DNA of 64,000 nucleotides from a virus. Both the position numbers and the translations under genes were made by a program. Below are positions 1-62,620 of the stretch, one piece after another. The stretch lies in UHGV virus genome UHGV-0072281; one strand, written 5' to 3'. Each line of letters opens with the position of its first letter. Within the stretch, counting starts at the first letter, position 1. The notes below the pieces were generated by a model that had not been told where the DNA came from, did no database searches, and worked only from the letters and a program-made list of their open reading frames with translations.

Positions 1-1
1 A

Positions 2-217
2 CGGGTAGAAGAACAAGGTAAGAATTGGGACGATGAGGTTCTTACCGTTAAGTATTTAAAAGACAACCAAAGCTGGGAAGCGTTACGTGATCACTACCGT
101 TTCGCCCACCACATTCTCACTGAAGGCGGTTGTCTGCACCATTTATTACTCGTGAAGCAAGACGACGATTACCGTTTAAAAGCGGCTGAAATCGTTGCTT
201 GTATTTTAGAGAATTAA
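2..217 (+). CDS. 3' end of an upstream CDS (5'-truncated by window edge), hypothetical protein
   Basis: Frame 2 is open from the window start to TAA at 215-217 and is followed by a hairpin terminator; no start codon in window. Confidence 0.4.
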   Translation, partial: RVEEQGKNWDDEVLTVKYLKDNQSWEALRDHYRFAHHILTEGGCLHHLLLVKQDDDYRLKAAEIVACILEN

Positions 218-224
218 TCACATA

Positions 225-259
225 CCCCTACCTTCGGGTAGGGGGTTATTTAATTTTTT
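225..259 (+). terminator. Rho-independent terminator
   Basis: Hairpin ccccTACC-ttcg-GGTAgggg followed by T-rich run. Confidence 0.6.
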
Positions 260-260
260 C

Positions 261-300
261 TCAGATATATATTACCTTAGTGAGATTACACAGTAATCTC
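261..300 (+). promoter_or_regulatory. Promoter-like motif TCAGATATATATTACC plus downstream inverted repeat (gagattac/gtaatctc)
   Basis: Same 15-16 nt motif recurs at 20149, 24537, 62581 (variants at 5299, 58236), each followed by a different short hairpin and then an RBS and gene. Confidence 0.5.
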
Positions 301-334
301 TTACGACTTGTTCTACAGATTAGGATTAATTATC

Positions 335-694
335 ATGGCTTACAATCACAACTCTATTGTTTTAGCAAAACGTAAATTCGGTCTTCATCTTTCTTACGTG
401 ATTCGTCATTTGACAGCGAAAGACATTACACAGCGTGAACTTGCCCAGCTTGCGAAAGTTTCACAACCGGTTATTTCATCTATTAAGAACGAACGCAGCG
501 AATGCCTGAGTCTCCCAATAATGATGAAGGTTGCTGATGCGATTCGTCTGAAATATCAGATTACGTTTAATTCTGTTAAAGGGAGTTGCTCAGTAACGGT
601 TCACGTAGAGTCTGCGTTGGACTACGTTGCAAATACGTCCCTTAAACGTACAGCGAAGAATATTCGTTTTGTTACTAACGGCGCAACACACTAA
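335..694 (+). CDS. Helix-turn-helix (XRE-like) DNA-binding protein
   Basis: HTH-like segment ITQRELAQLAKVSQPVISSIKN; AGGA RBS 10 nt upstream of ATG 335 (track ORF begins at in-frame TTG 308). Confidence 0.5.
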   Translation: MAYNHNSIVLAKRKFGLHLSYVIRHLTAKDITQRELAQLAKVSQPVISSIKNERSECLSLPIMMKVADAIRLKYQITFNSVKGSCSVTVHVESALDYVANTSLKRTAKNIRFVTNGATH

Positions 695-715
695 CCAACC
701 TAAAGGAGTATTATC

Positions 716-1402
716 ATGGCACCGAAAACTAAGAAAACTGAAGTTAAAGAAACTGAAGAAAAACCGGTTAACTTCTATAATGACGAACAGGTTAAGCAGA
801 CTGAGCCTAGCAAGAAGCTTGCGCTTATGCCGCCTACCACAGAAATACACGGGGATAAAATCTTAAGTTACACTCCGCGCATGAGTTTAGCGATCGATAT
901 TTACCATTACCCGGTATTCGACCTGTACACGCTTGTCTGTCGACTCGACGATGAGATACTGGCAGTCGTTCCAGGTATCCACAAAGAAAAACTGCTTACG
1001 GGTTCAGTCATTAGCGAGATTTTCCTGCGCCTGATGTTTAAATCAGACGATAAGAGAATCAGCCAGATTGCTGGTAAAATGACTGACTTCTTTGTTGAGG
1101 CTTCAACGTGGTTAGGCTTTCACCCAACGGCTTATTTCATTTTCGACACCAAAATGTTGTATGCTGAAATGGGCGACAGCGTTAAGTATCCTATCTTACT
1201 TAATGAAGAAGTCGTTCCGTTTTCCCTTTCCAGTCCTAACAAACATCTTCGCTTTCATCCGGCGTTAGAAAGCCTGATCGAACACCAACGGTTGGAAAAA
1301 TATTACGCTTATCATCGCATGTTCTTTGAGCTTCTGCGTGATAAATTAAGAGGCAAAGTTCCAGATTCTAGTGTATCGTTCACTAGTTCTAAGCTTTGGT
1401 AG
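716..1402 (+). CDS. Hypothetical protein
   Basis: 228-aa ORF with strong RBS AAAGGAG upstream of ATG. Confidence 0.65.
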   Translation: MAPKTKKTEVKETEEKPVNFYNDEQVKQTEPSKKLALMPPTTEIHGDKILSYTPRMSLAIDIYHYPVFDLYTLVCRLDDEILAVVPGIHKEKLLTGSVISEIFLRLMFKSDDKRISQIAGKMTDFFVEASTWLGFHPTAYFIFDTKMLYAEMGDSVKYPILLNEEVVPFSLSSPNKHLRFHPALESLIEHQRLEKYYAYHRMFFELLRDKLRGKVPDSSVSFTSSKLW

Positions 1403-1414
1403 TTTGTAACAAAC

Positions 1415-1443
1415 AGGGAGCTTCGGCTCCCTTTTTCTTTTTA
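1415..1443 (+). terminator. Rho-independent terminator
   Basis: Hairpin gggagc-ttcg-gctccc followed by TTTTTCTTTTT. Confidence 0.7.
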
Positions 1444-1488
1444 CAACTTTTTCTTTTGTTGTGAGGAAAGCCGATAAGGAGTATTAAA

Positions 1489-2475
1489 ATGGTATATCGT
1501 AAAACGATAGAAAGAACCTCTTCTGATTTAACAGTAGGACGCTTAGCCCGTAGAGATATTCGCAATCCTCAACTTCAGGCATGTTTAATGGGTCCTAACG
1601 GTGCGGTGATTCGTGAAGCACTGTGTAATACCGAGCTGAATACGTTCTCTTTACAAAAAGGAAAAACAATCCAAGGGTTTATCATCACAAAACACATTTA
1701 CGGTGATCCAACGTTACACTGCTTGTATATGCACGAAATTGTACCAGGCTGTTTGAACAAACTGAGTCTTCTATTGGTACTTGACTATACGGGTTTTACG
1801 TACCTTAACCGAATTGCCAGAGGCGTGGAAGAAATTGCTGAGCTTAACGATTTAGGGTTTAGACATACCCACACAGCATATCGTTTAGGTACACGTACGC
1901 TATCGGATGTCACTTTACCGACGAACGTGAAGAACGTCTCCGGCGACTTCTATAAAGACTTAACCGGAGCACAACGTGAGCAGCTCATGACATTGTTTGG
2001 CACTAGTGTCGTTGAAAATATCAATGCTGACCCTGTAACGCGTTCTCGACAAATAATGCCGCAAGTTGAAACATTGGTGGAGTTAGTGCGGCACGTCAAT
2101 CACTACACTTACGTTTGGATGGGCGGTAATGACGTTGTGGGTGTGGTGCAAGTTAAATCACGTAATCTTAGTGAGTGCGAACTAAAAGCCATTGCGGTAA
2201 GTGAATCACACCGGGGCCGTGGGATTGGGCGTGCGTTGCTGTATCGTGCTTTACAGATTGCATCGACAACAGCGGCACCATTAGAAATAGGGTGTTACAA
2301 TAACAATTCAGCATTTAGACACCTGGCTGTAGATTTGTTTAAATTCCGTCCCTACGAGTACGAATTTGTTTTAGTGCGCGACGACGATGTCGTCAGTTGG
2401 GAGCGTCGGAAAAACCGCGTCGCGTTAGTGTTAGGCGACGAAATGTCAACGTTACAAGGCGGAATTAATGCATAA
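1489..2475 (+). CDS. Protein with C-terminal GNAT-like acetyltransferase motif
   Basis: 328-aa ORF; segment IAVSESHRGRGIGRALLYRAL resembles the GNAT acetyl-CoA binding motif; RBS AAGGAG. Confidence 0.45.
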   Translation: MVYRKTIERTSSDLTVGRLARRDIRNPQLQACLMGPNGAVIREALCNTELNTFSLQKGKTIQGFIITKHIYGDPTLHCLYMHEIVPGCLNKLSLLLVLDYTGFTYLNRIARGVEEIAELNDLGFRHTHTAYRLGTRTLSDVTLPTNVKNVSGDFYKDLTGAQREQLMTLFGTSVVENINADPVTRSRQIMPQVETLVELVRHVNHYTYVWMGGNDVVGVVQVKSRNLSECELKAIAVSESHRGRGIGRALLYRALQIASTTAAPLEIGCYNNNSAFRHLAVDLFKFRPYEYEFVLVRDDDVVSWERRKNRVALVLGDEMSTLQGGINA

Positions 2476-3283
2476 ACCAATTATAAAGTGGATGGGTGGC
2501 AAATCGCGGATCATCGACACCTTACTACAAGTCTTACCTGAACGTACAACATTCGTTGAACCGTTTGTTGGTGCAGGGTCGGTGTTTTTGAACACACGTT
2601 ATAAACGTTACATTCTTGCTGACTCTAACCCTGACTTAATACAGTTGCTGAACGTGGCGAAAGACCAACCTGAAGAACTTATCTTAAAGTCGAAACCGCT
2701 ATTCGAAGACGGTAACGATTGTATTAAGTATATGGAGAGACGAGAACTGTTTAATCGCGAAACGGATATGGCCCCGTTAGACCGTGCTGCAATGTTTCTG
2801 TACTTAATGCGTCATGGTTTTAACGGGATGTGTCGTTACAACGGCGGCGGAGGTTTTAACGTTCCGTTTGGTCGCTATCCTAACGGTGTGTATTACCCGT
2901 TAGAAGAGATTCGTGGTTGGGCTAAACGTTGTCAAGAACCGGAATACTTAGAAATTGTTTGTGAAGATTTCCGAACAGTTTTAGAGCGTACACCGGAAGA
3001 CAGCGTGATTTACGCAGACCCACCTTATATACCGCTCTCAGAGACCGCTAAACACGCCCAATACCATCGGAAGGAGTTTTCCCAGGCTGACCATCGGGAA
3101 CTCGCCAGAGCGCTGTTTAAGCAGGTTGAGAAGGGGAATAGCGTTGTGTTGTCCAATGCAGATACGTTACTAACGCGTGAGATTTATTACGGGTTCGAAT
3201 GGCGTTCTGTGGAAGTAGGGCGGTATATGGGTGCATCGGGCGCTGCTCGTAAAACGGTAACGGAATTGTTAGGAGTGCTCTAA
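2468..3283 (+). CDS. dam: DNA adenine (N6) methyltransferase, Dam family
   Basis: Close match to E. coli Dam signature blocks: KWMGGK, VEPFVGAGSVFLNT, YILAD, and catalytic DPPY; overlaps upstream gene by 8 nt. Confidence 0.9.
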   Translation: MHKPIIKWMGGKSRIIDTLLQVLPERTTFVEPFVGAGSVFLNTRYKRYILADSNPDLIQLLNVAKDQPEELILKSKPLFEDGNDCIKYMERRELFNRETDMAPLDRAAMFLYLMRHGFNGMCRYNGGGGFNVPFGRYPNGVYYPLEEIRGWAKRCQEPEYLEIVCEDFRTVLERTPEDSVIYADPPYIPLSETAKHAQYHRKEFSQADHRELARALFKQVEKGNSVVLSNADTLLTREIYYGFEWRSVEVGRYMGASGAARKTVTELLGVL

Positions 3284-4056
3284 TGCGTATAGTGGATATC
3301 CACGATTATCGTAATGACCATTTAGCGATTGGTGTAGAAGGTAAAATGGTTTCGTTAACCCGTGTACGTAAAGGGTTAATGGAAAAGGAAATCATTCGGG
3401 AATCTGAAGACCCTACTTTTATCATCCTTTCGAATACTAACCAGTTACAGGGCATCTTTTCAGGGCGTGCAGACGGTAAGATTTTCTATATGTCCGCGAT
3501 CGTTGTGTTTGCGAAGAAGAACATCAACTTCGCCCAACTCAAACGTTTGTTAAACGTGAAGATGTTCGATGTCACGTACCCTGCTAACGACCTAAAACGT
3601 CGTAATCAATTAATGACGTTTTTAGGTATGCAACCAACGTCTATCGATTATGACCTTACGATTACTGAAAAGCCGGAAGTGCGCACTGACTTACCTGACG
3701 TAGACGATGTTGAATCCTTAACGTTAGAAGAGACGTTTACGATTCCTAAGGTTGTTAATGTCAACCTGGACACGCACTGTTTAGGGTTGTTAGCCGTAGG
3801 TGCAGCAGAAGGGTTGTGTTGTCGTAAAGACGGTAAGGTTGAAGGTATCTTAGTCTATTCGAAAATCAACGAAAAGACATTTGCCACCGAAGGCTTTTTC
3901 TATAACGATTGCACTTACGGAAACGCTCTACTAACCACGTATTTCCGTATTGCTTATCTGAAAGGCGCAACTGTACGCCTCACGTTTCCATACACAGCTC
4001 CACCGTCTATGGGTGGAGTTGAGGTAGAAGCATTAACCGGTCACTTTATCTTTTAA
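3283..4056 (+). CDS. Hypothetical protein
   Basis: 257-aa ORF, start overlaps previous stop (ATG/TAA overlap). Confidence 0.6.
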   Translation: MRIVDIHDYRNDHLAIGVEGKMVSLTRVRKGLMEKEIIRESEDPTFIILSNTNQLQGIFSGRADGKIFYMSAIVVFAKKNINFAQLKRLLNVKMFDVTYPANDLKRRNQLMTFLGMQPTSIDYDLTITEKPEVRTDLPDVDDVESLTLEETFTIPKVVNVNLDTHCLGLLAVGAAEGLCCRKDGKVEGILVYSKINEKTFATEGFFYNDCTYGNALLTTYFRIAYLKGATVRLTFPYTAPPSMGGVEVEALTGHFIF

Positions 4057-4065
4057 GGACGATGA

Positions 4066-4293
4066 ATGGAAATCAAACGTATTGTAACCAAAAACAAACA
4101 GATTGTTTACGTCGCAGGTGATAACGAATTCTCGGCGGTAATTAACAGCGAAAATGCGCTCATTATCGGTTATCCGGGTAAAGTTATTACGCGCAGTCAC
4201 CAACGTGCGATTGACAAACTTATCGCGAAAGCGAAAGCGCGCGACGGTGTTGGTTCAGTACAAACCCACACAGGGTTAACGCTGACCCTCTAG
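4066..4293 (+). CDS. Hypothetical protein
   Basis: 75-aa ORF with GGA-rich RBS. Confidence 0.5.
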   Translation: MEIKRIVTKNKQIVYVAGDNEFSAVINSENALIIGYPGKVITRSHQRAIDKLIAKAKARDGVGSVQTHTGLTLTL

Positions 4294-4332
4294 TCAGCAG
4301 GTAATATGACCTCTTAACTGGAGACTTTAATA

Positions 4333-4839
4333 ATGAGTGAGACTCTGGATTTTAATCAGCTCGAACAACACGATTTTGATCTCGGTGTTCGTGATATCGA
4401 TGCTGATCATGAAACACGTTGTAAAGAGCTGTTTAACCGTTACGGTCAGCTCATCACCGGTGCCTCTGATGACACCGAATTCAGTTTAGATGAGTTTGAA
4501 AAAGTTTTGTCGTGTTTTATCACCGATTGCCTGGCGAAGAAAGCGTTACTTGTAGAACTGAACTTAGACTCCGTCGAACCTACCGATGCCCACGCGGTGT
4601 TGAAAGAATCCATTATCCCAACTGATGAGATTATGGACACGGTAGCAGGTATTCGTGGTACGTTTGAAACCGCTGTAGATGAATACACGGAACAGCTTCG
4701 TGAGTCAGGACTGACGTTGTGTGCGCCAGCAGGCGAGCAATTACCGTCCGACGCAGAAACTGAAGAAGCGCGTAGCCGCTTAGCACGTTATGTTATCACG
4801 TCTATCTTGGTAGATGATCGCGAAGAGAATCTGCTGTAA
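4333..4839 (+). CDS. Hypothetical acidic protein
   Basis: 168-aa ORF, very acidic; followed by terminator. Confidence 0.6.
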   Translation: MSETLDFNQLEQHDFDLGVRDIDADHETRCKELFNRYGQLITGASDDTEFSLDEFEKVLSCFITDCLAKKALLVELNLDSVEPTDAHAVLKESIIPTDEIMDTVAGIRGTFETAVDEYTEQLRESGLTLCAPAGEQLPSDAETEEARSRLARYVITSILVDDREENLL

Positions 4840-4845
4840 GCTGCA

Positions 4846-4880
4846 CCCTCTCTCCAGACGGAGAGAGGGTGTATTTTTTT
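4846..4880 (+). terminator. Rho-independent terminator
   Basis: Hairpin ccctctctcc-agac-ggagagaggg followed by T7 run. Confidence 0.75.
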
Positions 4881-4935
4881 ACGCGTATAGCCGTAGTTAT
4901 GCACAAGTAAACAAAATTAATTGAGGAACAATCTG

Positions 4936-5253
4936 ATGTGGTTAAGTGCTATTCATCGCGATTTACCGAAAACGGCAGTGAGTTTTGCTAAGAAAACTCC
5001 TGTTCCTAACGTTGGTGTTGCTAAATTTGAACGAGTGGAAGAGGGGCAATTCGTTGTAACGGATCATAAAGAAAACGAATTTATGTTGTATCATCCAGAA
5101 GTGGATACCTCTGAAATTTGTGAGGGTGTTTTTTTATTGTCCTGGCAAGACCCTGAAACTAAAGAGTGGAAGTGGTGCACCGCTAAACCATTAAAAGAAA
5201 TCGAAAACGGTTATGGGATTGGAGAAATTTATGTCGAACCAGAACCACACTAA
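4936..5253 (+). CDS. Hypothetical protein
   Basis: ORF with GAGGA RBS before ATG 4936 (track begins at in-frame TTG 4921). Confidence 0.5.
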   Translation: MWLSAIHRDLPKTAVSFAKKTPVPNVGVAKFERVEEGQFVVTDHKENEFMLYHPEVDTSEICEGVFLLSWQDPETKEWKWCTAKPLKEIENGYGIGEIYVEPEPH

Positions 5254-5298
5254 TTTCGATATAACATCAGCATTGCGTTGTTAACGGTCTAAAAAATT

Positions 5299-5331
5299 TA
5301 AGATATATTTCATCTATGTGAGAATTCTCAC
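5299..5331 (+). promoter_or_regulatory. Promoter-like motif variant (AGATATATTTCATC) plus palindrome gtgagaattctcac
   Basis: Resembles the TCAGATATATATTAC family; sits 25 nt upstream of RBS of gene at 5355. Confidence 0.35.
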
Positions 5332-5354
5332 TTAACTAAATGGAGTAATCTAAA

Positions 5355-5624
5355 ATGGCTAAGATTTACATTGTTGAAAAACGTTCAGGTAATGTTCTTT
5401 CTTATCACGAAGAAGGCAAACCCGAAAGAGTTAAAACGCTCAAGCTTGAAGGTTTTGATGTGAAAAGCCTGCGTAAAGGCGTGAAGATTACTTTCAAAGG
5501 TTTGATTCGTGCAAGTAACTTACACATCATTAAAACGGACGGAACGATGGTTGCATTAGCACCGGCTACCGCTGCGAAAACGACAGCCGGTCGGGGTTGC
5601 TACGGCAGCAGTCGTAAGATTTAA
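5355..5624 (+). CDS. Hypothetical protein
   Basis: 89-aa ORF with RBS TGGAG. Confidence 0.6.
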   Translation: MAKIYIVEKRSGNVLSYHEEGKPERVKTLKLEGFDVKSLRKGVKITFKGLIRASNLHIIKTDGTMVALAPATAAKTTAGRGCYGSSRKI

Positions 5625-5630
5625 GCAGTG

Positions 5631-5669
5631 CCCCTCTCTCCTAGCGGAGAGAGGGTACTTTTATTTTTC
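5631..5669 (+). terminator. Rho-independent terminator
   Basis: Hairpin cccctctctcc-tagc-ggagagaggg followed by T-run; near-copy of the 4846 terminator stem. Confidence 0.75.
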
Positions 5670-5682
5670 TTCGAGGTGTGTG

Positions 5683-6171
5683 ATGACAACGGTATTAGTA
5701 ACAAAGGATTACATTTTAGCTGATCGTTTAGTGGAATATAGTGGAACAGTTAAAGAATTGCCCAAACTACACAAACACAAAAACAAGTTTGTTTTCTACA
5801 CGGGGGAACGTGTACTGGACACCGAGTTTTGGAAAATGTCGATGACCGTTACTATAGAAAAATATTTAGACGAGGATAAACGCAAGAAAGTTGAGCCGTT
5901 GCTTGTGGAACTTTTCGAAAAAGAGCAATTGTTTGATCAAATCGTCATTTTTACGGTCAGAGAAACCTATTGGCTAGGATTAGTATCAGATAAGTTTAAA
6001 ACGTTTGTAATAAATAAAAATGCGGTCTGGACGACGGGATCTGGTGGCGGCTTTGCGCGGGCAGCTTGGGCAACAGGAATATCAGAAAAGAAAATTATGC
6101 CATTGGTAGGATCAATTGATACAGCATCATCACAAACGTACGACTTGTTTTACAGGAAGCATTTACGATGA
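5683..6171 (+). CDS. Hypothetical protein
   Basis: ORF with GAGG RBS 6 nt before ATG 5683 (GTG at 5680 also possible). Confidence 0.6.
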   Translation: MTTVLVTKDYILADRLVEYSGTVKELPKLHKHKNKFVFYTGERVLDTEFWKMSMTVTIEKYLDEDKRKKVEPLLVELFEKEQLFDQIVIFTVRETYWLGLVSDKFKTFVINKNAVWTTGSGGGFARAAWATGISEKKIMPLVGSIDTASSQTYDLFYRKHLR

Positions 6172-20148: not shown

Positions 20149-20194
20149 TCAGATATATATTACCTAGAGGAGAGTGAAATTTACATTCACTCCA
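20149..20194 (+). promoter_or_regulatory. Promoter-like motif TCAGATATATATTACC plus downstream inverted repeat (gagtgaa/ttcactc)
   Basis: Exact motif copy; precedes gene 20222. Confidence 0.5.
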
Positions 20195-24536: not shown

Positions 24537-24577
24537 TCAGATATATATTACCTAGGTGAGAGTTCAGTTACTCTCAC
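24537..24577 (+). promoter_or_regulatory. Promoter-like motif TCAGATATATATTACC plus downstream inverted repeat (gtgagagt/actctcac)
   Basis: Exact motif copy; precedes gene 24608. Confidence 0.5.
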
Positions 24578-33944: not shown

Positions 33945-34000
33945 ACAAAAAAAAACAATAAGTTTACCTACCTCCTTTACGGAGGTAGGTATTTTTTATT
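33945..34000. terminator. Bidirectional rho-independent terminator between convergent operons
   Basis: A9 run, hairpin cctacctcc-tttac-ggaggtagg, T-run. Confidence 0.75.
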
Positions 34001-34670
34001 CTAATCCCATTTCCAGTGCAAGTGCACGGATAGTGTCGTAGTCACGCTGTTCAGCTAAGAGGCGAAGCTCTTTTTTCTGTGCGGTCATTTGTCCATGCAA
34101 CTTCTGATCACGTTTTACGATCTCGGACAATAATTCCTTACACTCTTCTAATGTAAAGGGTTCTAAACGTGTATTGGCGGTATCCAACCAATATTCTGGC
34201 GCAGTTTCAGATTGGATGTATTGCCCTAACATTTGTCGGGAGATTGCATCAGCCTGAAAATGACGTTCATTTAGCTGAATTGGTTCGTAACGTTGTGCTT
34301 CGTAACGCTTCTCCAACGCCATCATGATCTTTTGAACATCTAAATAAATATATCGTGCTGTTGAACGAACGTTACTTCGAATCTCATCCAGATCTATCTC
34401 CAATTTATCTGAAATGAACTCTTTTGCTTTTTTCAAGGTGAAATTTGCTTCAATATCTGACATATTGTAACTACGCATTTGATCTAACGCGTCTTCATCG
34501 GACATGCCGTCGAGTAGTTTGTAATGAAGCAGTGTACAAAAACCCGTTCTGCCGCGATCTTCAGTACCTATATGGCCCAAAAAGTTTCCGTGGCGATCAA
34601 TTGGGGAAAGTCGGCTAAAAAATCTGGCGCGAATATCTTCGTTTATTAAGCTTTTGTCAAGAGCAGGCAT
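33996..34670 (-). CDS. Hypothetical protein, last gene of the radical SAM/peptide locus
   Basis: 224-aa ORF, overlaps upstream gene by 25 nt (translational coupling). Confidence 0.55.
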   Translation of the reverse strand: MPALDKSLINEDIRARFFSRLSPIDRHGNFLGHIGTEDRGRTGFCTLLHYKLLDGMSDEDALDQMRSYNMSDIEANFTLKKAKEFISDKLEIDLDEIRSNVRSTARYIYLDVQKIMMALEKRYEAQRYEPIQLNERHFQADAISRQMLGQYIQSETAPEYWLDTANTRLEPFTLEECKELLSEIVKRDQKLHGQMTAQKKELRLLAEQRDYDTIRALALEMGLE

Positions 34671-35218
34671 TCGTCTTCTCCTTTAATTAAACCCAGCTCG
34701 ATCAGAAGATCAAAATCGATTTTACGAAACTTACTATCAAAATTTGAGTCCCAGTCAATATGTAGTCCTTGACGTTCGTCTTCTGTAAACTCGGGATAAA
34801 CTAAACTATGAAAAGTTTCCCTTTCATCGTAAAAACCATCGATGGTGGACTCTGGGTTTCGTGTGACATAAATTGTTACACCGGGAAACGATAAGCCTAG
34901 GGCGGCTACAGATTCAACACTCGGCTCTTGCAAAGCGCGTCGCAAAAGAACGATTTTATGTTTAGGGAATTCCAGCACGCGCTGTTCAAAACCTGGGTTT
35001 CGTTTCTCGATTTCAGCCACAGAAAGATCGGTAAGTTCTGTACAATACATCGGAATAACAACGGTAACTCCGTGACGAATTAATAATCGCTTAACATCGT
35101 CATTGAAATCTTCGCCGTTAATCTGTACATAACAGCCAAACAGTTTCGTAGTTTCTAAAAACTTTTCCAGAAAACGGAATTTACGCTTCGTAATATTGTG
35201 GATCAGAATTGGCTTCAT
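34646..35218 (-). CDS. Hypothetical protein in radical SAM/peptide locus
   Basis: 190-aa ORF overlapping the SPASM rSAM gene end. Confidence 0.5.
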   Translation of the reverse strand: MKPILIHNITKRKFRFLEKFLETTKLFGCYVQINGEDFNDDVKRLLIRHGVTVVIPMYCTELTDLSVAEIEKRNPGFEQRVLEFPKHKIVLLRRALQEPSVESVAALGLSFPGVTIYVTRNPESTIDGFYDERETFHSLVYPEFTEDERQGLHIDWDSNFDSKFRKIDFDLLIELGLIKGEDECLLLTKA

Positions 35219-36503
35219 CTTTGGCTTCTCTCAATTGTTTTTCTTTCTGGGCGCGTTCACGTACACAGCGAGGACAGTAACACATGCTATTATCGTGAAA
35301 ATCCTTCACGGATGTTGTGCCCATTTTCTGCTTCCAATATTCCGCAACCATCAATTTTGCAGTTGTCCAACCACACTGACGACGTTCAGCGTGATATGCT
35401 TTACGGTCTTCTAACGTCCCTTCCCCATTCTCGTAGGAAGCTGCTGCACAGCTACCACAAGCGTGTTTCATTGGACAACCTAAGCACGTCTCAGGATAGT
35501 TGGTGTATTGCGTCTGAATCTCTTCCAGCAGTTTCCCACCGTCTAAACTAACGAATTCGCGACCGACTAACTCAAATACCGCAGAGCGTGACGTTACAGT
35601 CGACATGAAACGGTTACAACCGAAAATCTTCCTGTCAAACCCTAAACAAGTCATGTGCGTTAATGTCCCGCAGAACGGGCGCAAGCGTTCCGGGTTTAAA
35701 CGTACAGTATCGTTGTAAAGTAGCTGATCACGCCAGTTCGGTTCCCAGATAGTGTCGAAATCTAACCCTTCCGGGATGATATGCGAAAGGGTATTACGTG
35801 GGTTGGTGTGTAAACCCTTTTCAACCCAATAATCGACTACATCCATCATTTGTAGCGCTATCGACGTAGCCATACTCCGTGGCATAATGTCTTCGAAGGT
35901 TACGTTACCAGAAATGGTTCCACCTCCCGCCAAATCGATTAGGGATTTCATACCCGCCGCATAATGTGGGAGTGTCTCCAAAGTAAATGTCGCTTTAACC
36001 CCAAGCTCCGCGATACCTACTTCTTTTAGATAATTGTAACCACGTACAGCGGCCTCGTAGGAACCTTCGCGACTCGTTGTAAAAATACGGTACTTATCGT
36101 GCGACTCAGGTAACCCATCAATAGATACCCCGATAGAAAGTCTGTCCTTCCAACGTTCAATAATTTCCCTGTTCAACGGCCTATCTAATAATGTCCCATT
36201 AGTAGAGATACTAAACATAAACGGACGTTTATGTTCTTCACACAACTGCTCGGCTGTTTCGAAAGCAGTCATTAGAAGCTTAGGCTGCATAAACGGTTCA
36301 CCGCCGATAATGTCAATGATGACTTCTACGTTTGGTAAATCTTTATCGCGTTCAAAGCAGGCATGAAGAAAGTCTACAATATCCGCTGCTTTGTTATTGC
36401 GGGGATATTTACGCTCGTAACAATACTCACAGTCCAAATTACACGACAAGTTTGTAACAATCTGGTAAGTCAACTGTTTCGGGTAATTATTTTCTTGGTT
36501 CAT
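35181..36503 (-). CDS. Radical SAM enzyme with C-terminal SPASM-like Cys-rich domain (putative peptide-modifying maturase)
   Basis: N-terminal CNLDCEYC (C-x3-C-x2-C), IIGGEPF glycine-rich SAM motif, C-terminal Cys clusters incl. CLGCPMKHACGSC. Confidence 0.8.
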   Translation of the reverse strand: MNQENNYPKQLTYQIVTNLSCNLDCEYCYERKYPRNNKAADIVDFLHACFERDKDLPNVEVIIDIIGGEPFMQPKLLMTAFETAEQLCEEHKRPFMFSISTNGTLLDRPLNREIIERWKDRLSIGVSIDGLPESHDKYRIFTTSREGSYEAAVRGYNYLKEVGIAELGVKATFTLETLPHYAAGMKSLIDLAGGGTISGNVTFEDIMPRSMATSIALQMMDVVDYWVEKGLHTNPRNTLSHIIPEGLDFDTIWEPNWRDQLLYNDTVRLNPERLRPFCGTLTHMTCLGFDRKIFGCNRFMSTVTSRSAVFELVGREFVSLDGGKLLEEIQTQYTNYPETCLGCPMKHACGSCAAASYENGEGTLEDRKAYHAERRQCGWTTAKLMVAEYWKQKMGTTSVKDFHDNSMCYCPRCVRERAQKEKQLREAKDEANSDPQYYEA

Positions 36504-37410
36504 TTAATACTCCACTATTACGGTTGGCCATAACCACTCGTCGAATATACTCGTAGGCTTCTAACCCGATGGAACAAGCTAATTGGTTACATCCCGATTC
36601 TAATAATCTCGGGGCATTTTGCAACTGATATTCGGTTCCATCTGCTCTTAACCATAAACTATTGCTGCATACGTTACACCCACCATCAAAAACTTTGCTT
36701 ACGACATAGTCACACCTTTTCGAGTTGGAAACATTCAGTCTTTCTATATTTTCCTGAATTCTAAAATACCCGTAAATAAAGTTCATAACGTGATCGGGAG
36801 ATAACGGTTTTGGCATATTTGCGTCTAACAGCAACGTCATGGTACGATAACCGTAGTGATAGATCGCATTATGAAGCTCAATAATGTCTTCATGCCACCG
36901 TTTGTTACCCAACTGTTCTCGAGTTAAAACGGCCCATGTATGAACATTTTCAAGCTCATGCATTACTTCTAAAGCTTCGTAGCAATCATCGCTAATAAAA
37001 CGCTTAAAAGGGCGTTCAGACAACTCAAACCCGTCGATGCTAACATATACGTTATCAAATTGTTTTAACAACGGTAGATGCGTTTTACGCATCTTTAAGC
37101 CATTGGTGTATAACTGATGTTTGAGTTCTGGGCGAACTGCTTTTAACTCGTCAACAAACGCCTCAATTTTACGAGTGGCTAACAAAGGCTCACCACCCGT
37201 CCATTGAATCTCGGTAATTGTTGGGTTAGCTTCTAACGCCTCCATAATTCGGTCACGTTGAAACTCTCGAGAAGAATCTTCACGATTCATGTAATAGGCT
37301 CCGCCGCAGAAACTACAGTCCAGATTACATTTGGATGTAGTAATAACGGCTAATATAGTTGGATTATCAAATAGCTGATCTGATAATTTTGGTTCCGCAT
37401 TGGTCGCCAT
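36487..37410 (-). CDS. Radical SAM enzyme (paralogue B)
   Basis: VITTSKCNLDCSFCGG (C-x3-C-x2-C), WTGGEPLL; C-terminal Cys residues; paralogue of 39018-39929 with blocks of perfect nucleotide identity. Confidence 0.8.
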   Translation of the reverse strand: MATNAEPKLSDQLFDNPTILAVITTSKCNLDCSFCGGAYYMNREDSSREFQRDRIMEALEANPTITEIQWTGGEPLLATRKIEAFVDELKAVRPELKHQLYTNGLKMRKTHLPLLKQFDNVYVSIDGFELSERPFKRFISDDCYEALEVMHELENVHTWAVLTREQLGNKRWHEDIIELHNAIYHYGYRTMTLLLDANMPKPLSPDHVMNFIYGYFRIQENIERLNVSNSKRCDYVVSKVFDGGCNVCSNSLWLRADGTEYQLQNAPRLLESGCNQLACSIGLEAYEYIRRVVMANRNSGVLNEPRK

Positions 37411-40412: not shown

Positions 40413-41618
40413 TTATTTCGTACCCGCTTCCGCCTGTACGTCATCACGAGACGTCAAGTTAGCGTTAACGTGTACTGGGGCCTGAACCACACCACCGTAT
40501 TTCTTGTGGAGATAACCGGTATGTGGGTTATCTGCCGCAATGTGGTTTTGTAGGTTCTGGTTCGCCTGACTGATTGCGTTCGTGTTGTTAGCAACTTGCT
40601 TTTTGAGCGCATCCAGGTTCTGTTGTAACTGATCGATTTTCTGATCGGTTTCTTGACCCTGTTGCTCTAACGCGTCAACACGCTGAATAACCTGATTCAG
40701 TTTCGTGTTCAAATCGTTAATGCTCTTTTGCAGCTGTAACACTAACGAGTTCAGGTTCGCTAACGCTAAAGCCATTTTCTGGTAGTTTTGAGCAACCACG
40801 TTAAGTTGGTCGTTCCACGCTTCCAGAGAGTTGACAACAGCGTCAATACGCTTACCTAAAGCTTCATCTGCTTTCTTCAGTGCATTGATTTCCGTAATCG
40901 TTGCGTCGATAGCAGACTGGACGTCACGAATAAGCGCACGGATTTCAGTTTCTGTTAACCCGTTAACCTGATGAATATCAAGATGGTGAACGTTACCGGT
41001 TGCGTTAATGTGTGCATTTAAAGCGTCTAAGAAGTCATTTTTCAGGCTTTCTAAAATCGCTTTAATGTTCTCTAACTGTACCGCGTCACCAGAACTGATC
41101 GCATCTTTAATACCCGCCAATACGGTAATGATATATTCAAAACCGTAAATATCACCTACGTCTTTATACGTCGGTGCAGAAGGGAATGTATCTGGTACGT
41201 TACGCAGGTCTTTAAACGCAACCGTACGGTTATCGAGGTTTAATTCAGCAATCGCCTGTTCGATAGCCACGATGTTCGCAGACTGTGGGCCACCAACGAC
41301 CTGCGCAGATACCGTAATATCTGTTGGAATCGCTGTGTTAGTGACCACCACCGCCATAACAATCTCGCGGTTTTTAGTCAGCTTTTCATAAGTCGGGTGT
41401 GCAAAAATCAACTCATAATCGGTACCACGTTCGTAGGTTGCATCCGGTCGGTTAGCAACGCGTAAACGGAACGTGTCCGCAAAGAACGGGCCGTCAGGAA
41501 AAGCAAAAGCACGGTTTACTTTACCTGTACCTAACGTAATCTGACGCTCCACAGCGTTAGACGTTAGCGAGCCCGTTAAATCTAAAGGATATTGATAAAC
41601 AATGGAGGCCATGGCCAC
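40413..41618 (-). CDS. Fibre-like structural protein with N-terminal shared anchor module and coiled coil
   Basis: 401 aa; N-terminal block (FPDGPFFADTFRLRV...GTDYEL) shared with the three giant proteins upstream; long heptad-like segment; C-terminal NPH motif. Confidence 0.6.
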   Translation of the reverse strand: MAMASIVYQYPLDLTGSLTSNAVERQITLGTGKVNRAFAFPDGPFFADTFRLRVANRPDATYERGTDYELIFAHPTYEKLTKNREIVMAVVVTNTAIPTDITVSAQVVGGPQSANIVAIEQAIAELNLDNRTVAFKDLRNVPDTFPSAPTYKDVGDIYGFEYIITVLAGIKDAISSGDAVQLENIKAILESLKNDFLDALNAHINATGNVHHLDIHQVNGLTETEIRALIRDVQSAIDATITEINALKKADEALGKRIDAVVNSLEAWNDQLNVVAQNYQKMALALANLNSLVLQLQKSINDLNTKLNQVIQRVDALEQQGQETDQKIDQLQQNLDALKKQVANNTNAISQANQNLQNHIAADNPHTGYLHKKYGGVVQAPVHVNANLTSRDDVQAEAGTK

Positions 41619-41652
41619 TCTCCTTTATTCGAGACGTCCTTGTCCCGAGTCA

Positions 41653-44600
41653 TTAAGATGTAAACATAAGATTGAACTGGAGTTTGTCGATATCGCGAGT
41701 TTCTGCTGGATTCACGCCGTCGTACGCGGTCGCTACGTAAACCGTTAGCGTACCGTCAGCGTACGAGGATATTACCGGTGGGTTAGTTCCGGTCTGACCA
41801 TCTCGCACAATGAGTGCAGGCTCGCTGGGAAGATTATCAAACTGCCCTTTAACCGCTTTGTATACCAAACCGGACTGTGCAGATAACTCCGTGTCTGTGT
41901 ACACACAGAACGGTGTATCGATGTCAGCTTGTTTGATAGTGGTACCGGATTCGACATCAACCAACTGTACTGCTCCAAACTTCGTGCGATAACTTTCATA
42001 TTCGTTCTTCGGAATAACAAAAGTAACGTGAACACGAACTTCTTCAGCGGGCTTAAAGCCAGTATGTTCTTTTTCCAAATACTGGTTGGCTGATAGTGTC
42101 ACTTTTTGTTCGGCCATCGAACCACCTGCCTGATTTATTCCGTACCGGGCTTCAACAATACCGGTTGGTGCAGCAAGTCGCAATTTCAGAGTCCGATTCG
42201 CCGTTCCTGGATTACCTGGCACTTGAACGCGCAAACTCAATGCTAAGTAAGCATACGTTCCGGTAGTCGGTTTCGTATACGCACCTATCCATTTCATGTT
42301 CGCAGACGCTGCCTGCGTGTTCTCAGAAGCAATGGCTGTCGTAATGTTAGCAGCTACCGCTTTCTGCCAGAATTGGTCGGCGCAGTTCTCATACGCTACT
42401 CTGGCCACGCTCTTATAACCCGAATACGTTTCCTGAATTGGTAACTTAGGACGCGTCGTGATGCCAGACAATGAACCCCATTTTTGACCGTCAACATACC
42501 CTTCGCCCTTCGACGCAGCCGCCGTAGGTGCTTTAACGGGCTTGTTAACCAGGGTTAATAGAGGACCCGTCTTTCTGTCAAACGCTGCTGCTACATCGTG
42601 TTGGTCGATAATTGCTGCGTGGTCTTCCAGCTCTTTCACACGACCCAAGCGTTTTACTTTGTCGATACTGATATCAGTAATACGGCTGGAATCGGTGGTT
42701 ACTGTCCCGACGAACAGTCTCGTTGAAGTATCGGCTAACTGCTCCAAACCGATGCGGTATTGTGCGGTAGAATCCGACACCTCAGCGTGCACGTAGAACG
42801 TCTGGTTAGCGTGATTGGACGGGAACTCGCTGCTTAAATCCACAGACCACGTTGGGAGTGTGTAGCTGCTGCTACCGAAGTCTAATTTGACTTCTTCTGT
42901 CAAATACAGAATCCAACCTTCCGCTGTCTCCACACCAGCAATAATAACCGCCTGACCACCGGTTGAGAACGTCGTGTCGTTAACGAACTCTGCGGCTGTA
43001 TACGCGTTACCTGAACAGAAAACACGGTCAGCTTTAGAGAAAATCAACGCCATCTTGTCCCAATTACCGGCACCCATATAGCATCCAGATTCTGGGTTAT
43101 GCGCAGGAGCCATCTGACGTAACTGCGACTTACCAGGAACGCGAGACCAACCTGAACCTGGGTCGTAGGTATACTTCGCGGCGTAACCTAGTGCGTTTAA
43201 GTCCCCGATATTTCGGATAGTTAACGTATAAGGTAGCCAGATACCGAAGTTAGTTCCATCCGCAGAAGCGAAAATAGGCTGTCCGACGCGACGGGTCTTA
43301 TTACCAGCCTCCTCTCTTAACGACTGATAACTTAAACCGTAGTCTTTATCCAGGAACCAATCCACCAACTTAAAGTTAGCGGAGTTGAACCGTAAGTAAC
43401 CATTCTCTTTAGATGGACTCACCATGAAGTAATAGATGTCAAGAATTCGACGACCGTTACTTAAGGTTTTCATGCACGAAACTTGCAACAAGTCAAATTC
43501 GCACACGGTGTTGATACCCAACATCCAAAGAGCAAACAATGCATTACCGGTTTGATGGGCAGCACTAATACGTTCGTTCGCGTATCCGTTCGCTTGGCCA
43601 GAAGGTGCACCGTCAACGATCATCCGAATCATTTTCTGTCGATCGGCTTCTTCTAGCGTTAAGCGTTCGGAAGACAACGCGAAGTTACCGTAGATGTTAC
43701 GATACGGGAACGTTTCTGCTTTGGTCAAATACCAACCGTTTAACTGTCCGTGACGCTCCTCAGGAGTCATGCACGCAGCCATACAGCTAAGCTGCTCATA
43801 TAGCGTTGGATCGACTTCACGACGGTTGTTGTTCGGACCGTATCCGCTATAACCCGGAACATCGTAAGGTTTGTTCGGATCAACTTCTACTTCGATGGTG
43901 TAACGGTTACGTGGGTTAGACATCCACACTTTGTTCGAACCACCAATCCCAACAGGATGGGAAAGACCAATGGTATAAATAGAACCACGACCTTTATCCC
44001 AGGTAAACGTTCCTTCGCCTGAGGTATTGTTTGGGTTATCGTAACGCAGATAATCGAAAAATTCTTTGCCTTGTGTTCCTTTAATAGAAACGTTAGGCAT
44101 TTGGTCCGCGTCGTTAATCTGCCAGCAGGAAAGCATCATTCCTGTTCCATTAGGCTTAGCGTACGTTGCAAAACAACGATTGTTTGCTTGACCACCGCCC
44201 CACTTACGGCTGGTTTCTACAGTTGAACCATCCGCGAAAGAGAGTGTAGTAGCATCAGCCTTGATGGGAAAGCGTTCGCGGCCTTCTAACGTAACCTTGC
44301 CCGTCGACGTATCGATTGTAAAACTTGTTGCCCACTGACGAAAGTTAATTTGTGAGCTGTCAGCCGCTGCAAACCACACAGTAGGCATATGGTTCACACG
44401 AATCACGCCGTCGCGCACTGCACAAGCATGGTTACATTCTGGACCGTGAACAAAGTTGCAACCAATTGTCCATTTAGCCCGTGCTTCCGGCGTCAAATAC
44501 GTAAAGAACTGACCCGTTTGTGACTCTTCGGTTTTCTGGCCAATGCGTAGGCAGAGGTTATCTCCGAATTGTCCCATCTCCCCGTTTAGTGTTACGCGTT

Positions 44601-46836: not shown

Positions 46837-46931
46837 CGTAAAGACTCCTACTTTTTAAATAAAATGGATACCCCTCCCCATTACAGGGAGGGGTTACCTA
46901 CGGACACACAACTGCCCGCAGGCAGCCTGTC

Positions 46932-51116: not shown

Positions 51117-51126
51117 AAAATTCTCC

Positions 51127-58235: not shown

Positions 58236-58290
58236 TCAGATATATTTTACTTAAGTGAATAGGAGCTGAAGTGCGAATTCAGCTCCTATA
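58236..58290 (+). promoter_or_regulatory. Promoter-like motif variant (TCAGATATATTTTAC) plus 11-bp-stem hairpin (taggagctgaa/ttcagctccta)
   Basis: Motif family member; sits in divergent intergenic region. Confidence 0.4.
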
Positions 58291-62580: not shown

Positions 62581-62620
62581 TCAGATATATATTACTTAGG
62601 TGAGAGTTAAGATTAACTCT
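62581..62620 (+). promoter_or_regulatory. Promoter-like motif TCAGATATATATTAC plus downstream inverted repeat (gagagttaa/ttaactct)
   Basis: Exact motif copy directly after terminator; precedes gene 62652. Confidence 0.5.

What the first reader, a model, noticed from the sequence alone, without database searches (positions are those of the whole stretch)
1489..3283. E. coli-like Dam methylase adjacent to a GNAT-like protein in the early region
Seen in sequence: the Dam protein matches E. coli Dam blocks almost residue-for-residue (VEPFVGAGSVFLNT, DPPY), suggesting GATC methylation to evade host restriction or drive phage processes. The upstream 328-aa protein has a GNAT-like acetyl-CoA motif only in its C-terminal part. 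Inference: an anti-restriction or host-modifying pair; the Dam similarity also points to an enterobacterial host.
Basis: partly seen in the sequence, partly recalled or inferred. Interest (0 to 1): 0.35.

Follow-up and report, generated by a model that had tools for sequence, protein, structure and literature searches.

The report
Jumbo-phage Dam methylase beside double-GNAT acetyltransferase
Both genes are real: a GATC-type DNA adenine methylase and a two-domain acetyltransferase, already annotated side by side in SPN3US-like giant phages, and nothing shows that they work together.

Summary
Both ORFs are at the stated coordinates. The 271-aa protein (2468-3283) is a full-length Dam-family methyltransferase. 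It has the FxGxG and DPPY motifs and every EcoDam GATC-contact residue, but only about 44% overall identity to E. coli Dam. The 328-aa protein (1489-2475) has a sequence-detectable GNAT domain only at aa 199-275. A structure model shows two GNAT folds in tandem, as in MshD, with a degenerate N-terminal copy.

The order HTH - x - GNAT - Dam - unknown matches Salmonella jumbo phage SPN3US and Erwinia jumbo phages. Erwinia phage phiEaH2 keeps Dam but lacks the GNAT gene, so the pair is not obligatory. Dam is 67-74% identical to its closest jumbo-phage homologues (49-52% in two Erwinia genera). The GNAT protein is 24-28% identical.

The enterobacterial host call is right, but on other evidence. 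Circular "plasmids" of about 222 kb in E. coli and Enterobacter ludwigii assemblies are 96-97% identical over the 3.5 kb compared and carry the same genes. These fit the published "persistent" Seoul-like jumbo phages.

The anti-restriction role and early timing remain inference. GATC is depleted about twofold although the phage encodes Dam. Verdict: an ordinary new member of a known kind.

The parts
262..282 (+). Early-type promoter-like motif CAGATATATATTAC-N6-G, followed by a hairpin, upstream of the HTH gene. It is the nearest upstream promoter candidate for the block.
   Evidence: The 14-mer has 5 matches (up to 2 mismatches), all on the + strand and intergenic, against 0.47 expected; 0 of 100 shuffles reach 5. 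The identical 14-mer lies at the syntenic place in SPN3US, L003 and L008. It resembles the AR9 vRNAP early consensus AAATATATATTAT-6N-G (PMC5312081). Window 224-289 was the only megablast match of the first 6 kb to the phage collection.
335..694 (+). XRE/Cro-type HTH DNA-binding protein (119 aa from the ATG at 335). It is the syntenic anchor, equivalent to SPN3US gp165.
   Evidence: Pfam HTH_37/HTH_3 and phrog_7126. PGAP annotates the same 360-nt CDS in the E. coli and Enterobacter records.
716..1402 (+). 228-aa protein of unknown function, fast-evolving.
   Evidence: No Pfam, PHROG or PADLOC hit. dN is 0.50 against the metagenome relative L003, while flanking genes have dN 0.05-0.07.
1415..1441 (+). 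Intrinsic terminator (AGGGAGC-TTCG-GCTCCCT plus a T run) directly upstream of the GNAT gene.
   Evidence: Terminator scan; sequence read.
1489..2475 (+). 328-aa tandem-GNAT protein. The N-terminal GNAT fold is degenerate (aa 14-133, nt 1528-1887). The C-terminal GNAT domain (aa 147-296, nt 1927-2376) has an intact acetyl-CoA motif A, R242-G-R-G-I-G247 (nt 2212-2229). The tail aa 303-328 is low-confidence.
2468..3283 (+). 271-aa orphan Dam-family N6-adenine DNA methyltransferase, predicted target GATC. Motif I F33-V-G-A-G37 is at nt 2564-2578 and motif IV D184-P-P-Y at nt 3017-3028. Its start overlaps the GNAT stop by 8 nt.
   Evidence: The EcoDam contact residues K9, Y119, N120, L122, R124, P134, R137 and Y138 correspond to K7, F118, N119, M121, R123, P133, R136 and Y137. 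dN/dS is 0.015. The overlap was read.
3283..4056 (+). 257-aa protein, translationally coupled to Dam (TAATG overlap). It is probably a degenerate GNAT-fold paralogue without the acetyl-CoA motif and is an orthologue of SPN3US gp160. It stays next to Dam even where the GNAT gene is missing.
4066..4293 (+). 75-aa protein of unknown function (SPN3US gp158-like), in the same terminator-bounded unit.
   Evidence: phrog_7896; 41% identical to gp158.
4333..4839 (+). 168-aa acidic protein of unknown function (SPN3US gp157-like), last gene of the unit.
   Evidence: phrog_8221; 40% identical to gp157.
4842..4880 (+). Strong intrinsic terminator (14-bp stem plus T7) closing the five-gene unit.
   Evidence: sequence read.

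Best explanation
The finding lies in a conserved, terminator-bounded five-gene cassette (1433-4880) of an SPN3US-like ('Seoul-like', Chimalliviridae-type) jumbo phage of Enterobacteriaceae.

Gene 2 is an orphan Dam-type methyltransferase. It most likely uses S-adenosylmethionine to flip out and N6-methylate the adenine of GATC, as E. coli Dam does. It probably acts on the phage's own DNA.

Gene 1 is a tandem-GNAT protein. Its C-terminal domain most likely binds acetyl-CoA and acetylates an amine on a protein or small molecule; the target is unknown. Its degenerate N-terminal GNAT fold probably serves as a substrate-binding or scaffold lobe, as in MshD-type double GNATs.

The two enzymes are neighbours by inherited gene order. 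They are co-transcribed and translationally coupled, but they are probably not an obligate functional pair.

Shown: the gene structures, families, motifs, predicted folds, synteny, purifying selection and host range. Inferred: GATC specificity in vivo, phage DNA as the substrate, acetyl-CoA use, and every biological role, whether anti-restriction, packaging or replication control, or substitution for a host Dam that cannot reach DNA inside the phage nucleus.
For: Dam family membership and motifs. All EcoDam DNA-contact residues are identical or conservatively replaced (alignment; residue roles from PMC4417163). The best PADLOC model is 'orphan methyltransferase', and no neighbour matches a nuclease or defence model. 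dN/dS is 0.015-0.02.

Synteny: the same order is found in SPN3US, Huxley and Wellington. The GNAT gene is absent while Dam is kept in phiEaH2. Conservation is unequal.

Lineage and host. Seoul-like phages all encode chimallin and are common as persistent elements in bacterial assemblies (10.1101/2024.12.31.630880).
Against: No experiment exists on this protein or its SPN3US orthologues; no mention of gp160-162, methylase or acetyltransferase was found in two SPN3US papers.

GATC is the second most depleted of all 256 tetranucleotides (observed/expected 0.52). It is also depleted in the related loci (0.21-0.63). This is unexpected if self-methylation fully neutralised whatever selects against GATC.

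Tight translational coupling of GNAT, Dam and ORF257, with GNAT-fold proteins on both sides of Dam, leaves some room for a joint function.

The window itself contains no chimallin gene that I identified, so nucleus formation is inferred from the relatives.
Confidence: 0.75

Rival explanations
1. The GNAT-fold proteins and Dam form one DNA-modification module. In this reading the tandem GNAT, and perhaps ORF257, acylates a DNA base, as Mu Mom (a GNAT-fold enzyme) does at adenine N6. It would work with Dam or alongside it to give a composite anti-restriction modification.
For: There is an 8-nt and a 1-nt start/stop overlap between the three genes. The GNAT-Dam adjacency is kept in four lineages. 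Dam is flanked by GNAT folds on both sides. There is a precedent: Mom-family and other GNATs have been predicted to modify DNA in jumbo phages (PMC7824862).
Against: There is no significant similarity to Mu Mom (best BLASTP E 0.06 over 18 aa). The nearest sequence and fold matches are protein or small-molecule N-acetyltransferases: RimI, IAA acetyltransferase, RibT, MshD, VipF. phiEaH2 keeps Dam and ORF257 but lacks the GNAT gene. The GNAT protein is 28% conserved against 67% for Dam, so there is no co-evolution signal.
Confidence: 0.07
2. Dam is not mainly anti-restriction. In this reading it marks phage DNA for a phage process, such as packaging-site cleavage as in P1, replication or segregation control during persistent carriage, or gene timing. 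It would stand in for a host Dam that is excluded from the phage nucleus.
For: P1 needs GATC methylation at pac, and its own Dam is essential in dam-negative hosts; the in vivo role of T4 Dam is unclear (PMC12707154). Chimalliviridae are already shielded from Type I and II restriction by the nucleus (same review). Near-identical genomes persist as 222-kb circular elements in cultured E. coli and Enterobacter. Dam is the most conserved protein of the block.
Against: No conserved GATC cluster was found. The only significant cluster (34106-34708) is absent from the E. coli-record relative and from SPN3US. General GATC depletion argues against a genome-wide signalling role. There are no localisation or timing data.
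Confidence: 0.15
3. Dam is a recent capture of the host's dam gene, so its similarity reports the current host.
For: It belongs to the EcoDam/DpnM subfamily rather than the T4 Dam type (E 1.5e-63 against 1.6e-7).
Against: Identity to E. coli Dam is only 44%, and the score is below the enterobacterial-Dam equivalog cut-off. It is 49-74% identical to Dams at the same syntenic position in Salmonella and Erwinia jumbo phages. This points to an old acquisition followed by inheritance within the phage lineage.
Confidence: 0.03

Closest known systems
Salmonella phage SPN3US gp161 (DNA methyltransferase) and gp162 (GNAT family N-acetyltransferase), with orthologues in Erwinia phages Huxley/Machina and Wellington/Kwan
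   Same: Same gene order: HTH - x - GNAT - Dam - gp160-like - .... Same protein lengths and same families. Dam is 67% identical to gp161.
   Different: The GNAT protein is only 28% identical to gp162 and ORF257 only 24% to gp160. The window has one gp160-like gene where SPN3US has gp160 and gp159. The genes overlap here but are separated by 10-30 nt in SPN3US. There is no nucleotide-level match to any record of the phage collection apart from the promoter element.
E. coli Dam (PDB 2G1P) and DpnM (2DPM)
   Same: Full-length alignment with FxGxG and DPPY. GATC-contact residues K9, N120, R124, P134, R137 and Y138 are identical; Y119F and L122M are conservative.
   Different: 44% identity; below the NF008152 equivalog cut-off; phage-encoded orphan. 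The C-terminal 10 residues of E. coli Dam are absent.
Phage Dam homologues with studied roles: P1 Dmt and T4 Dam
   Same: Phage-encoded orphan GATC methylases (PMC12707154).
   Different: T4 Dam is only distantly similar (E 1.6e-7). No pac-like conserved GATC cluster was found here. Those phages do not build a nucleus.
MshD mycothiol synthase (1OZP) and other tandem GNATs (MAB_4324 7Q3A, Legionella VipF 6WQB, ORF14 2WPW)
   Different: 10-13% identity. The MshD equivalog model scores 20.6 bits against a cut-off of 163. The substrate is unknown, and the family is confined to a few jumbo-phage clusters.
Phage Mu Mom (GNAT-fold adenine N6 acyltransferase)
   Same: A GNAT-superfamily protein in a phage, functionally linked to Dam in Mu. 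That link is from my own knowledge of mom regulation.
   Different: No detectable sequence similarity. Different length and domain architecture.

Membership tests
Dam family / D12-class N6-adenine DNA methyltransferase (TIGR00571, PF02086) | Full-length match to the family models above the curated cut-offs | tested here: met
   PF02086 scores 194 bits (cut-off 22) over aa 8-250. TIGR00571 scores 253 bits (cut-off 114.85).
Dam family / D12-class N6-adenine DNA methyltransferase (TIGR00571, PF02086) | AdoMet-binding motif I (FxGxG) and catalytic motif IV (DPPY) | tested here: met
   F33-V-G-A-G37 and D184-P-P-Y187.
Dam family / D12-class N6-adenine DNA methyltransferase (TIGR00571, PF02086) | GATC-recognition residues of EcoDam (K9, Y119, N120, L122, R124, P134, Y138) | tested here: met
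   K7, F118, N119, M121, R123, P133 and Y137 in the 2G1P alignment. Residue roles are from PMC4417163.
Dam family / D12-class N6-adenine DNA methyltransferase (TIGR00571, PF02086) | Methylation of GATC adenine demonstrated | not testable with these tools
   Needs a methylome or DpnI/MboI digestion of phage DNA from a dam-negative host.
Enterobacterial Dam orthologue (NCBIfam equivalog NF008152 / PRK10904) | Score at or above the equivalog cut-off | tested here: not met
   254 bits against a cut-off of 441; 44% identity to E. coli Dam.
Type II restriction-modification system | Cognate restriction endonuclease encoded next to the methyltransferase | tested here: not met
   The neighbours give no PADLOC, Pfam or PHROG nuclease hit. 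The best PADLOC model for the methyltransferase is 'orphan methyltransferase'. ORF257 looks GNAT-like.
GNAT superfamily (PF00583) | Domain match above the gathering score, with motif A Q/R-x-x-G-x-G/A | tested here: met
   Acetyltransf_1 scores 42.6 bits (cut-off 20.7) at aa 199-275. Motif A is R242-G-R-G-I-G247, and G247 is invariant in the family.
GNAT superfamily (PF00583) | GNAT fold | tested here: met
GNAT superfamily (PF00583) | Acetyl-CoA-dependent acyl transfer | not testable with these tools
   Needs a binding or activity assay.
Tandem (double) GNAT architecture, MshD-like | Two GNAT folds in one polypeptide | tested here: met
Mycothiol synthase MshD (TIGR03448) | Equivalog-level sequence match | tested here: not met
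   20.6 bits against a cut-off of 163.1, covering one domain only.
Mom family (DNA adenine N6 acyltransferase) | Sequence similarity to Mu Mom | tested here: not met
   BLASTP best E 0.059 over 18 residues.
Seoul-like (SPN3US-like) jumbo phages, Chimalliviridae | Shared gene content and order with SPN3US | tested here: met
   Seven of eleven tested genes in 1-6.7 kb match SPN3US gp154-gp162 in order. SPN3US-type giant virion proteins, a baseplate protein and radical SAM genes are present.
Seoul-like (SPN3US-like) jumbo phages, Chimalliviridae | Chimallin (nuclear shell protein) gene | not tested
   No chimallin query sequence was available, and none of the window ORFs I scanned was identified as chimallin. 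It is inferred from the statement that all 299 Seoul-like phages encode it (10.1101/2024.12.31.630880).

The most novel reading that the evidence does not exclude
The phage carries its own Dam because its chimallin nucleus shuts out the host enzyme. The methylase would be imported to keep the roughly 222-kb genome G6mATC-marked. The mark would serve packaging, replication or segregation control during the plasmid-like persistent state, or protection in the window before the next nucleus forms. The co-translated GNAT-fold paralogues on either side of Dam would act in the same pathway. The group-wide GATC depletion would then be the trace of a defence or repair pressure that acts on this mark.
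Probability: 0.1. Interest if true: 0.55.

Novelty: new member of a known kind. Interest (0 to 1): 0.2.

Why it matters
As it stands, the result is a correct but routine annotation. Orphan Dam methylases and GNAT acetyltransferases are common in phages. This exact pair is already annotated in SPN3US-like phages and in two RefSeq 'plasmid' records.

Three by-products have modest value:
- The 'GNAT-like' protein is a lineage-restricted double GNAT, and Dam probably sits inside a small array of diverged GNAT-fold paralogues.
- The phage lineage exists as circular elements of about 222 kb in sequenced E. coli and Enterobacter isolates, which fits the recently described persistent jumbo phages.
- A Dam-encoding, probably nucleus-forming phage group nevertheless avoids GATC strongly. 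This raises a testable question: what does GATC methylation do for a phage whose DNA is physically shielded?

Tried and rejected
1. Mom-like DNA acylation: direct BLASTP against Mu Mom found nothing.

2. A Dam-regulated GATC cluster, pac- or ori-like: the only significant cluster (9 sites in 600 bp, 34106-34708, inside a DUF4376 gene) is not conserved in the E. coli-record relative (1 site in that gene) or in SPN3US (3 sites). It lies in a mosaic region only 75% identical at nucleotide level, so I rejected it.

3. ORF228 (716-1402) as a further GNAT paralogue: alignment with the positional counterparts in SPN3US and Wellington gave only 4 invariant columns. I did not pursue it.

4. ORF257 fold: the AF2 model is poor (pLDDT 57). 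The GNAT assignment rests on consistent but weak evidence and is given as probable only.

5. Literature on SPN3US gp160-162: no mention in the two SPN3US papers I checked. Searches for methylation data on Seoul-like phages returned only general statements.

6. Searching papers for the promoter core TATATTAC returned only unrelated hits. Two guessed identifiers for the 2006 EcoDam structure paper were not held, and a residue-name search was swamped by unrelated papers.

7. No tRNA genes in the window. There is no excess of sigma-70-like promoters in 1-6000 (7 found against 10.4 expected).
Full report
**What is there.** The window carries ORFs at exactly the reported coordinates: 1489-2475 (+, 328 aa) and 2468-3283 (+, 271 aa). 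The second starts 8 nt before the first ends (ATGcaTAA). A third ORF (3283-4056, 257 aa) starts on the last base of the Dam stop codon (TAATG), with an AGGAG 8 nt upstream. An intrinsic terminator lies at 1415-1432 plus a T run. The next strong one is at 4842-4873. Between them lies a five-gene unit: GNAT, Dam, ORF257, ORF75 and ORF168.

**The methylase.** The 271-aa protein matches Pfam MethyltransfD12 over aa 8-250 (E 3.8e-57). It scores 253 bits on NCBIfam TIGR00571 'dam' (cut-off 115).
- It aligns end to end with E. coli Dam 2G1P (E 1.5e-63), more weakly with DpnM (E 3e-41), and only distantly with T4 Dam (E 1.6e-7).
- Identity to E. coli Dam is 116/261 = 44%. It does not reach the enterobacterial-Dam equivalog cut-off (254 against 441 bits).
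VEPFVGAGSVFLNT is identical to E. coli Dam, and DPPY is at aa 184-187.
- The residues that read GATC in EcoDam are R124, Y119, N120, L122, P134, K9 and Y138; their roles are given in PMC4417163. Here they are R123, F118, N119, M121, P133, K7 and Y137. GATC specificity is therefore well supported by sequence, though not demonstrated.
- The best PADLOC model is 'orphan methyltransferase', and no neighbour looks like a nuclease.
- Against a 96%-identical relative the gene shows 2 non-synonymous and 34 synonymous changes (dN/dS 0.015).

**The acetyltransferase.** Motif A is R242-G-R-G-I-G247, with G247 and Asn273 invariant in the family.
- I built an alignment of nine family members. It gave an AlphaFold model with pLDDT 82 and pTM 0.75.
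- In the model the GNAT strand-helix pattern occurs twice, at aa 14-133 and at aa 147-296.
- The N-terminal half is thus a second, degenerate GNAT fold without the acetyl-CoA loop.
- The protein is not MshD itself (20.6 bits against a cut-off of 163). It has no similarity to the DNA-modifying GNAT Mom of phage Mu.
- A profile search of 1.84 billion cluster representatives found only seven full-length clusters (E <= 1e-30). After that come generic single-domain GNAT hits near E 1e-9. The architecture is therefore lineage-restricted.
- dN/dS is 0.07-0.12.

**The neighbour of Dam.** ORF257 has no Pfam hit. Its AlphaFold model is poor (pLDDT 57), so this part is tentative.
- Profile-profile alignment with the 328-aa family is colinear over 174 columns, but weak (E 0.0017, probability 15%).
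- The tandem-GNAT model matches BFVD structures of uncharacterised 256-285-aa proteins of Erwinia phages Kwan and phiEaH2 at E 5e-10 to 9e-9. By length, these correspond to the genes downstream of Dam.
- Dam therefore probably sits inside a small array of diverged GNAT-fold paralogues.

**Context and lineage.**
- tblastn places the GNAT protein in 48 jumbo phages of Salmonella, Erwinia, Escherichia and Proteus at 24-29% identity. It places Dam at 65-73% in the closest of them.
- The order HTH - x - (x) - GNAT - Dam - gp160-like is the same in SPN3US (Seoulvirus), Huxley (Machinavirus) and Wellington (Wellingtonvirus). The same order holds in a 225-kb metagenome contig.
- Erwinia phage phiEaH2 (Erskinevirus) keeps the HTH gene, Dam and the downstream genes but has no GNAT gene. 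The pair is therefore not obligatory.
- Across the block, identity to SPN3US is: GNAT 28%, Dam 67%, ORF257 24%, and the remaining genes 40-59%.
- The rest of the window carries SPN3US-type giant virion proteins, a tail fibre, a baseplate protein and radical SAM genes.

**Host.** Megablast finds no phage record. It does find two circular 'plasmids' matching window 1400-4900:
- E. coli 98232 p98232-contig_4: 221,873 bp, from urine, Egypt, 95.6% identical.
- Enterobacter ludwigii 51A:C unnamed1: 222,441 bp, from gull cloaca, 96.7% identical.

PGAP annotates both with the same GNAT and Dam genes. ORF257 relatives at 88-91% identity include a 187-kb Shigella sonnei contig. This matches a preprint describing Seoul-like jumbo phages as frequent persistent elements in bacterial assemblies, all of them encoding chimallin (10.1101/2024.12.31.630880). 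The enterobacterial host is thus well supported, but not by Dam similarity. Dam is 49-74% identical to the other jumbo-phage Dams and 39-45% to E. coli Dam, which fits long residence in the phage lineage.

**Timing.** A 14-mer, CAGATATATATTAC, occurs five times (up to 2 mismatches) against 0.47 expected; 0 of 100 shuffles reach five.
- All copies are on the + strand and intergenic. Each is followed by N6-G and a hairpin.
- The copy at 262-275 precedes the HTH gene. The same 14-mer sits at the same place in SPN3US.
- It resembles the vRNAP early promoter of phage AR9, AAATATATATTAT-6N-G (PMC5312081).
- The GNAT-Dam unit has no such motif of its own and lies behind a terminator. 'Early' is therefore possible by read-through, but not shown.

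**Function.** The most likely reading is an orphan GATC methylase acting on phage DNA, next to an unrelated acetyl-CoA-dependent acetyltransferase with an unknown protein or small-molecule target. They are co-expressed because of inherited gene order.
- Anti-restriction has been proposed for the SPN3US-group methylase (PMC6614189). A comparative study suggests nucleus-forming phages might use such enzymes just after DNA entry (PMC7824862).
- Other known roles of phage Dams include P1 packaging. The role of T4 Dam is unclear (PMC12707154).
- One observation does not fit neatly. GATC is the second most depleted of all 256 tetranucleotides (132 sites, observed/expected 0.52). It is also depleted in the loci of SPN3US (0.38), phiEaH2 (0.25), Huxley (0.21) and Wellington (0.26) (small samples of 8-11 kb).
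- A GATC cluster at 34106-34708 is not conserved in relatives and was rejected as a regulatory site.

**Verdict.** The genes are new members of known families in a known phage group. Near-identical copies are already annotated in RefSeq. Interest is low.

Noticed in passing
window 262-282, 20150-20170, 24538-24558, 62582-62602; variant at 58237-58257 (all + strand): Conserved promoter-like element (T)CAGATATATATTAC-N6-G, always intergenic, often just after a terminator and followed by a 5' hairpin. The same 14-mer sits upstream of the HTH gene in SPN3US. It resembles the AR9 virion-RNAP early promoter consensus.
   Followed up: partly
window 1400-4900, against NZ_CP173450.1 (L007) and NZ_CP134650.1 (L008): The phage lineage is deposited as circular 'plasmids' of about 222 kb in complete assemblies of E. 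coli (urine, Egypt) and Enterobacter ludwigii (gull cloaca, France). They are 96-97% identical over this 3.5-kb stretch. This is consistent with persistent or carrier-state jumbo phages. No record in the phage collection matches at nucleotide level.
   Followed up: partly
whole window; also loci L001, L002, L004, L005: GATC is depleted about twofold (observed/expected 0.52, second only to CTAG among all 256 tetranucleotides) in a phage that encodes Dam. Related Dam-encoding jumbo phages show 0.21-0.38 in the 8-11 kb sampled. The cause is unexplained.
   Followed up: partly
whole window: TATG/CATA is the third most depleted tetranucleotide (0.59). TATG is the late-promoter core of the phiKZ non-virion RNAP, so this may reflect avoidance of spurious late promoters.
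   Followed up: no
window 33996-34708 (DUF4376 gene, - strand): Nine GATC sites lie within 600 bp (background 2 per kb). The region is only 75% identical to the E. coli-record relative, against 96% around Dam, and the cluster is absent there and in SPN3US. It is probably a recombined host-range module with a different sequence history.
   Followed up: yes
window 2468-3283 against L003 6980-7795: Against the 225-kb metagenome relative, the Dam gene has saturated synonymous divergence and 82% protein identity. Both flanking genes are 89% identical with dS of 0.8-1.0. This suggests that the Dam allele was exchanged by recombination within the phage group.
   Followed up: partly
window 716-1402: ORF228 is 37% identical (dN 0.50) between the window and the metagenome relative, although its neighbours are about 89% identical. 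It has no detectable match to the SPN3US genes at that position. It is a hyper-variable or replaced gene.
   Followed up: partly
window 4842-4873 and 5632-5655: Two intrinsic terminators share the same stem sequence (CCCTCTCTCC ... GGAGAGAGGG). This is a repeated terminator module.
   Followed up: no
window 35181-36503 and 36487-37410 (- strand): Two adjacent, overlapping radical SAM genes of the same PHROG (phrog_1802). Their function is unknown.
   Followed up: no
window 40413-55452 (- strand): A run of four paralogous virion structural proteins (401, 1727, 1394 and 1441 aa) cross-match the same PHROGs (2163, 7449, 8078, 7557). This is the SPN3US-type giant virion protein family.
   Followed up: no
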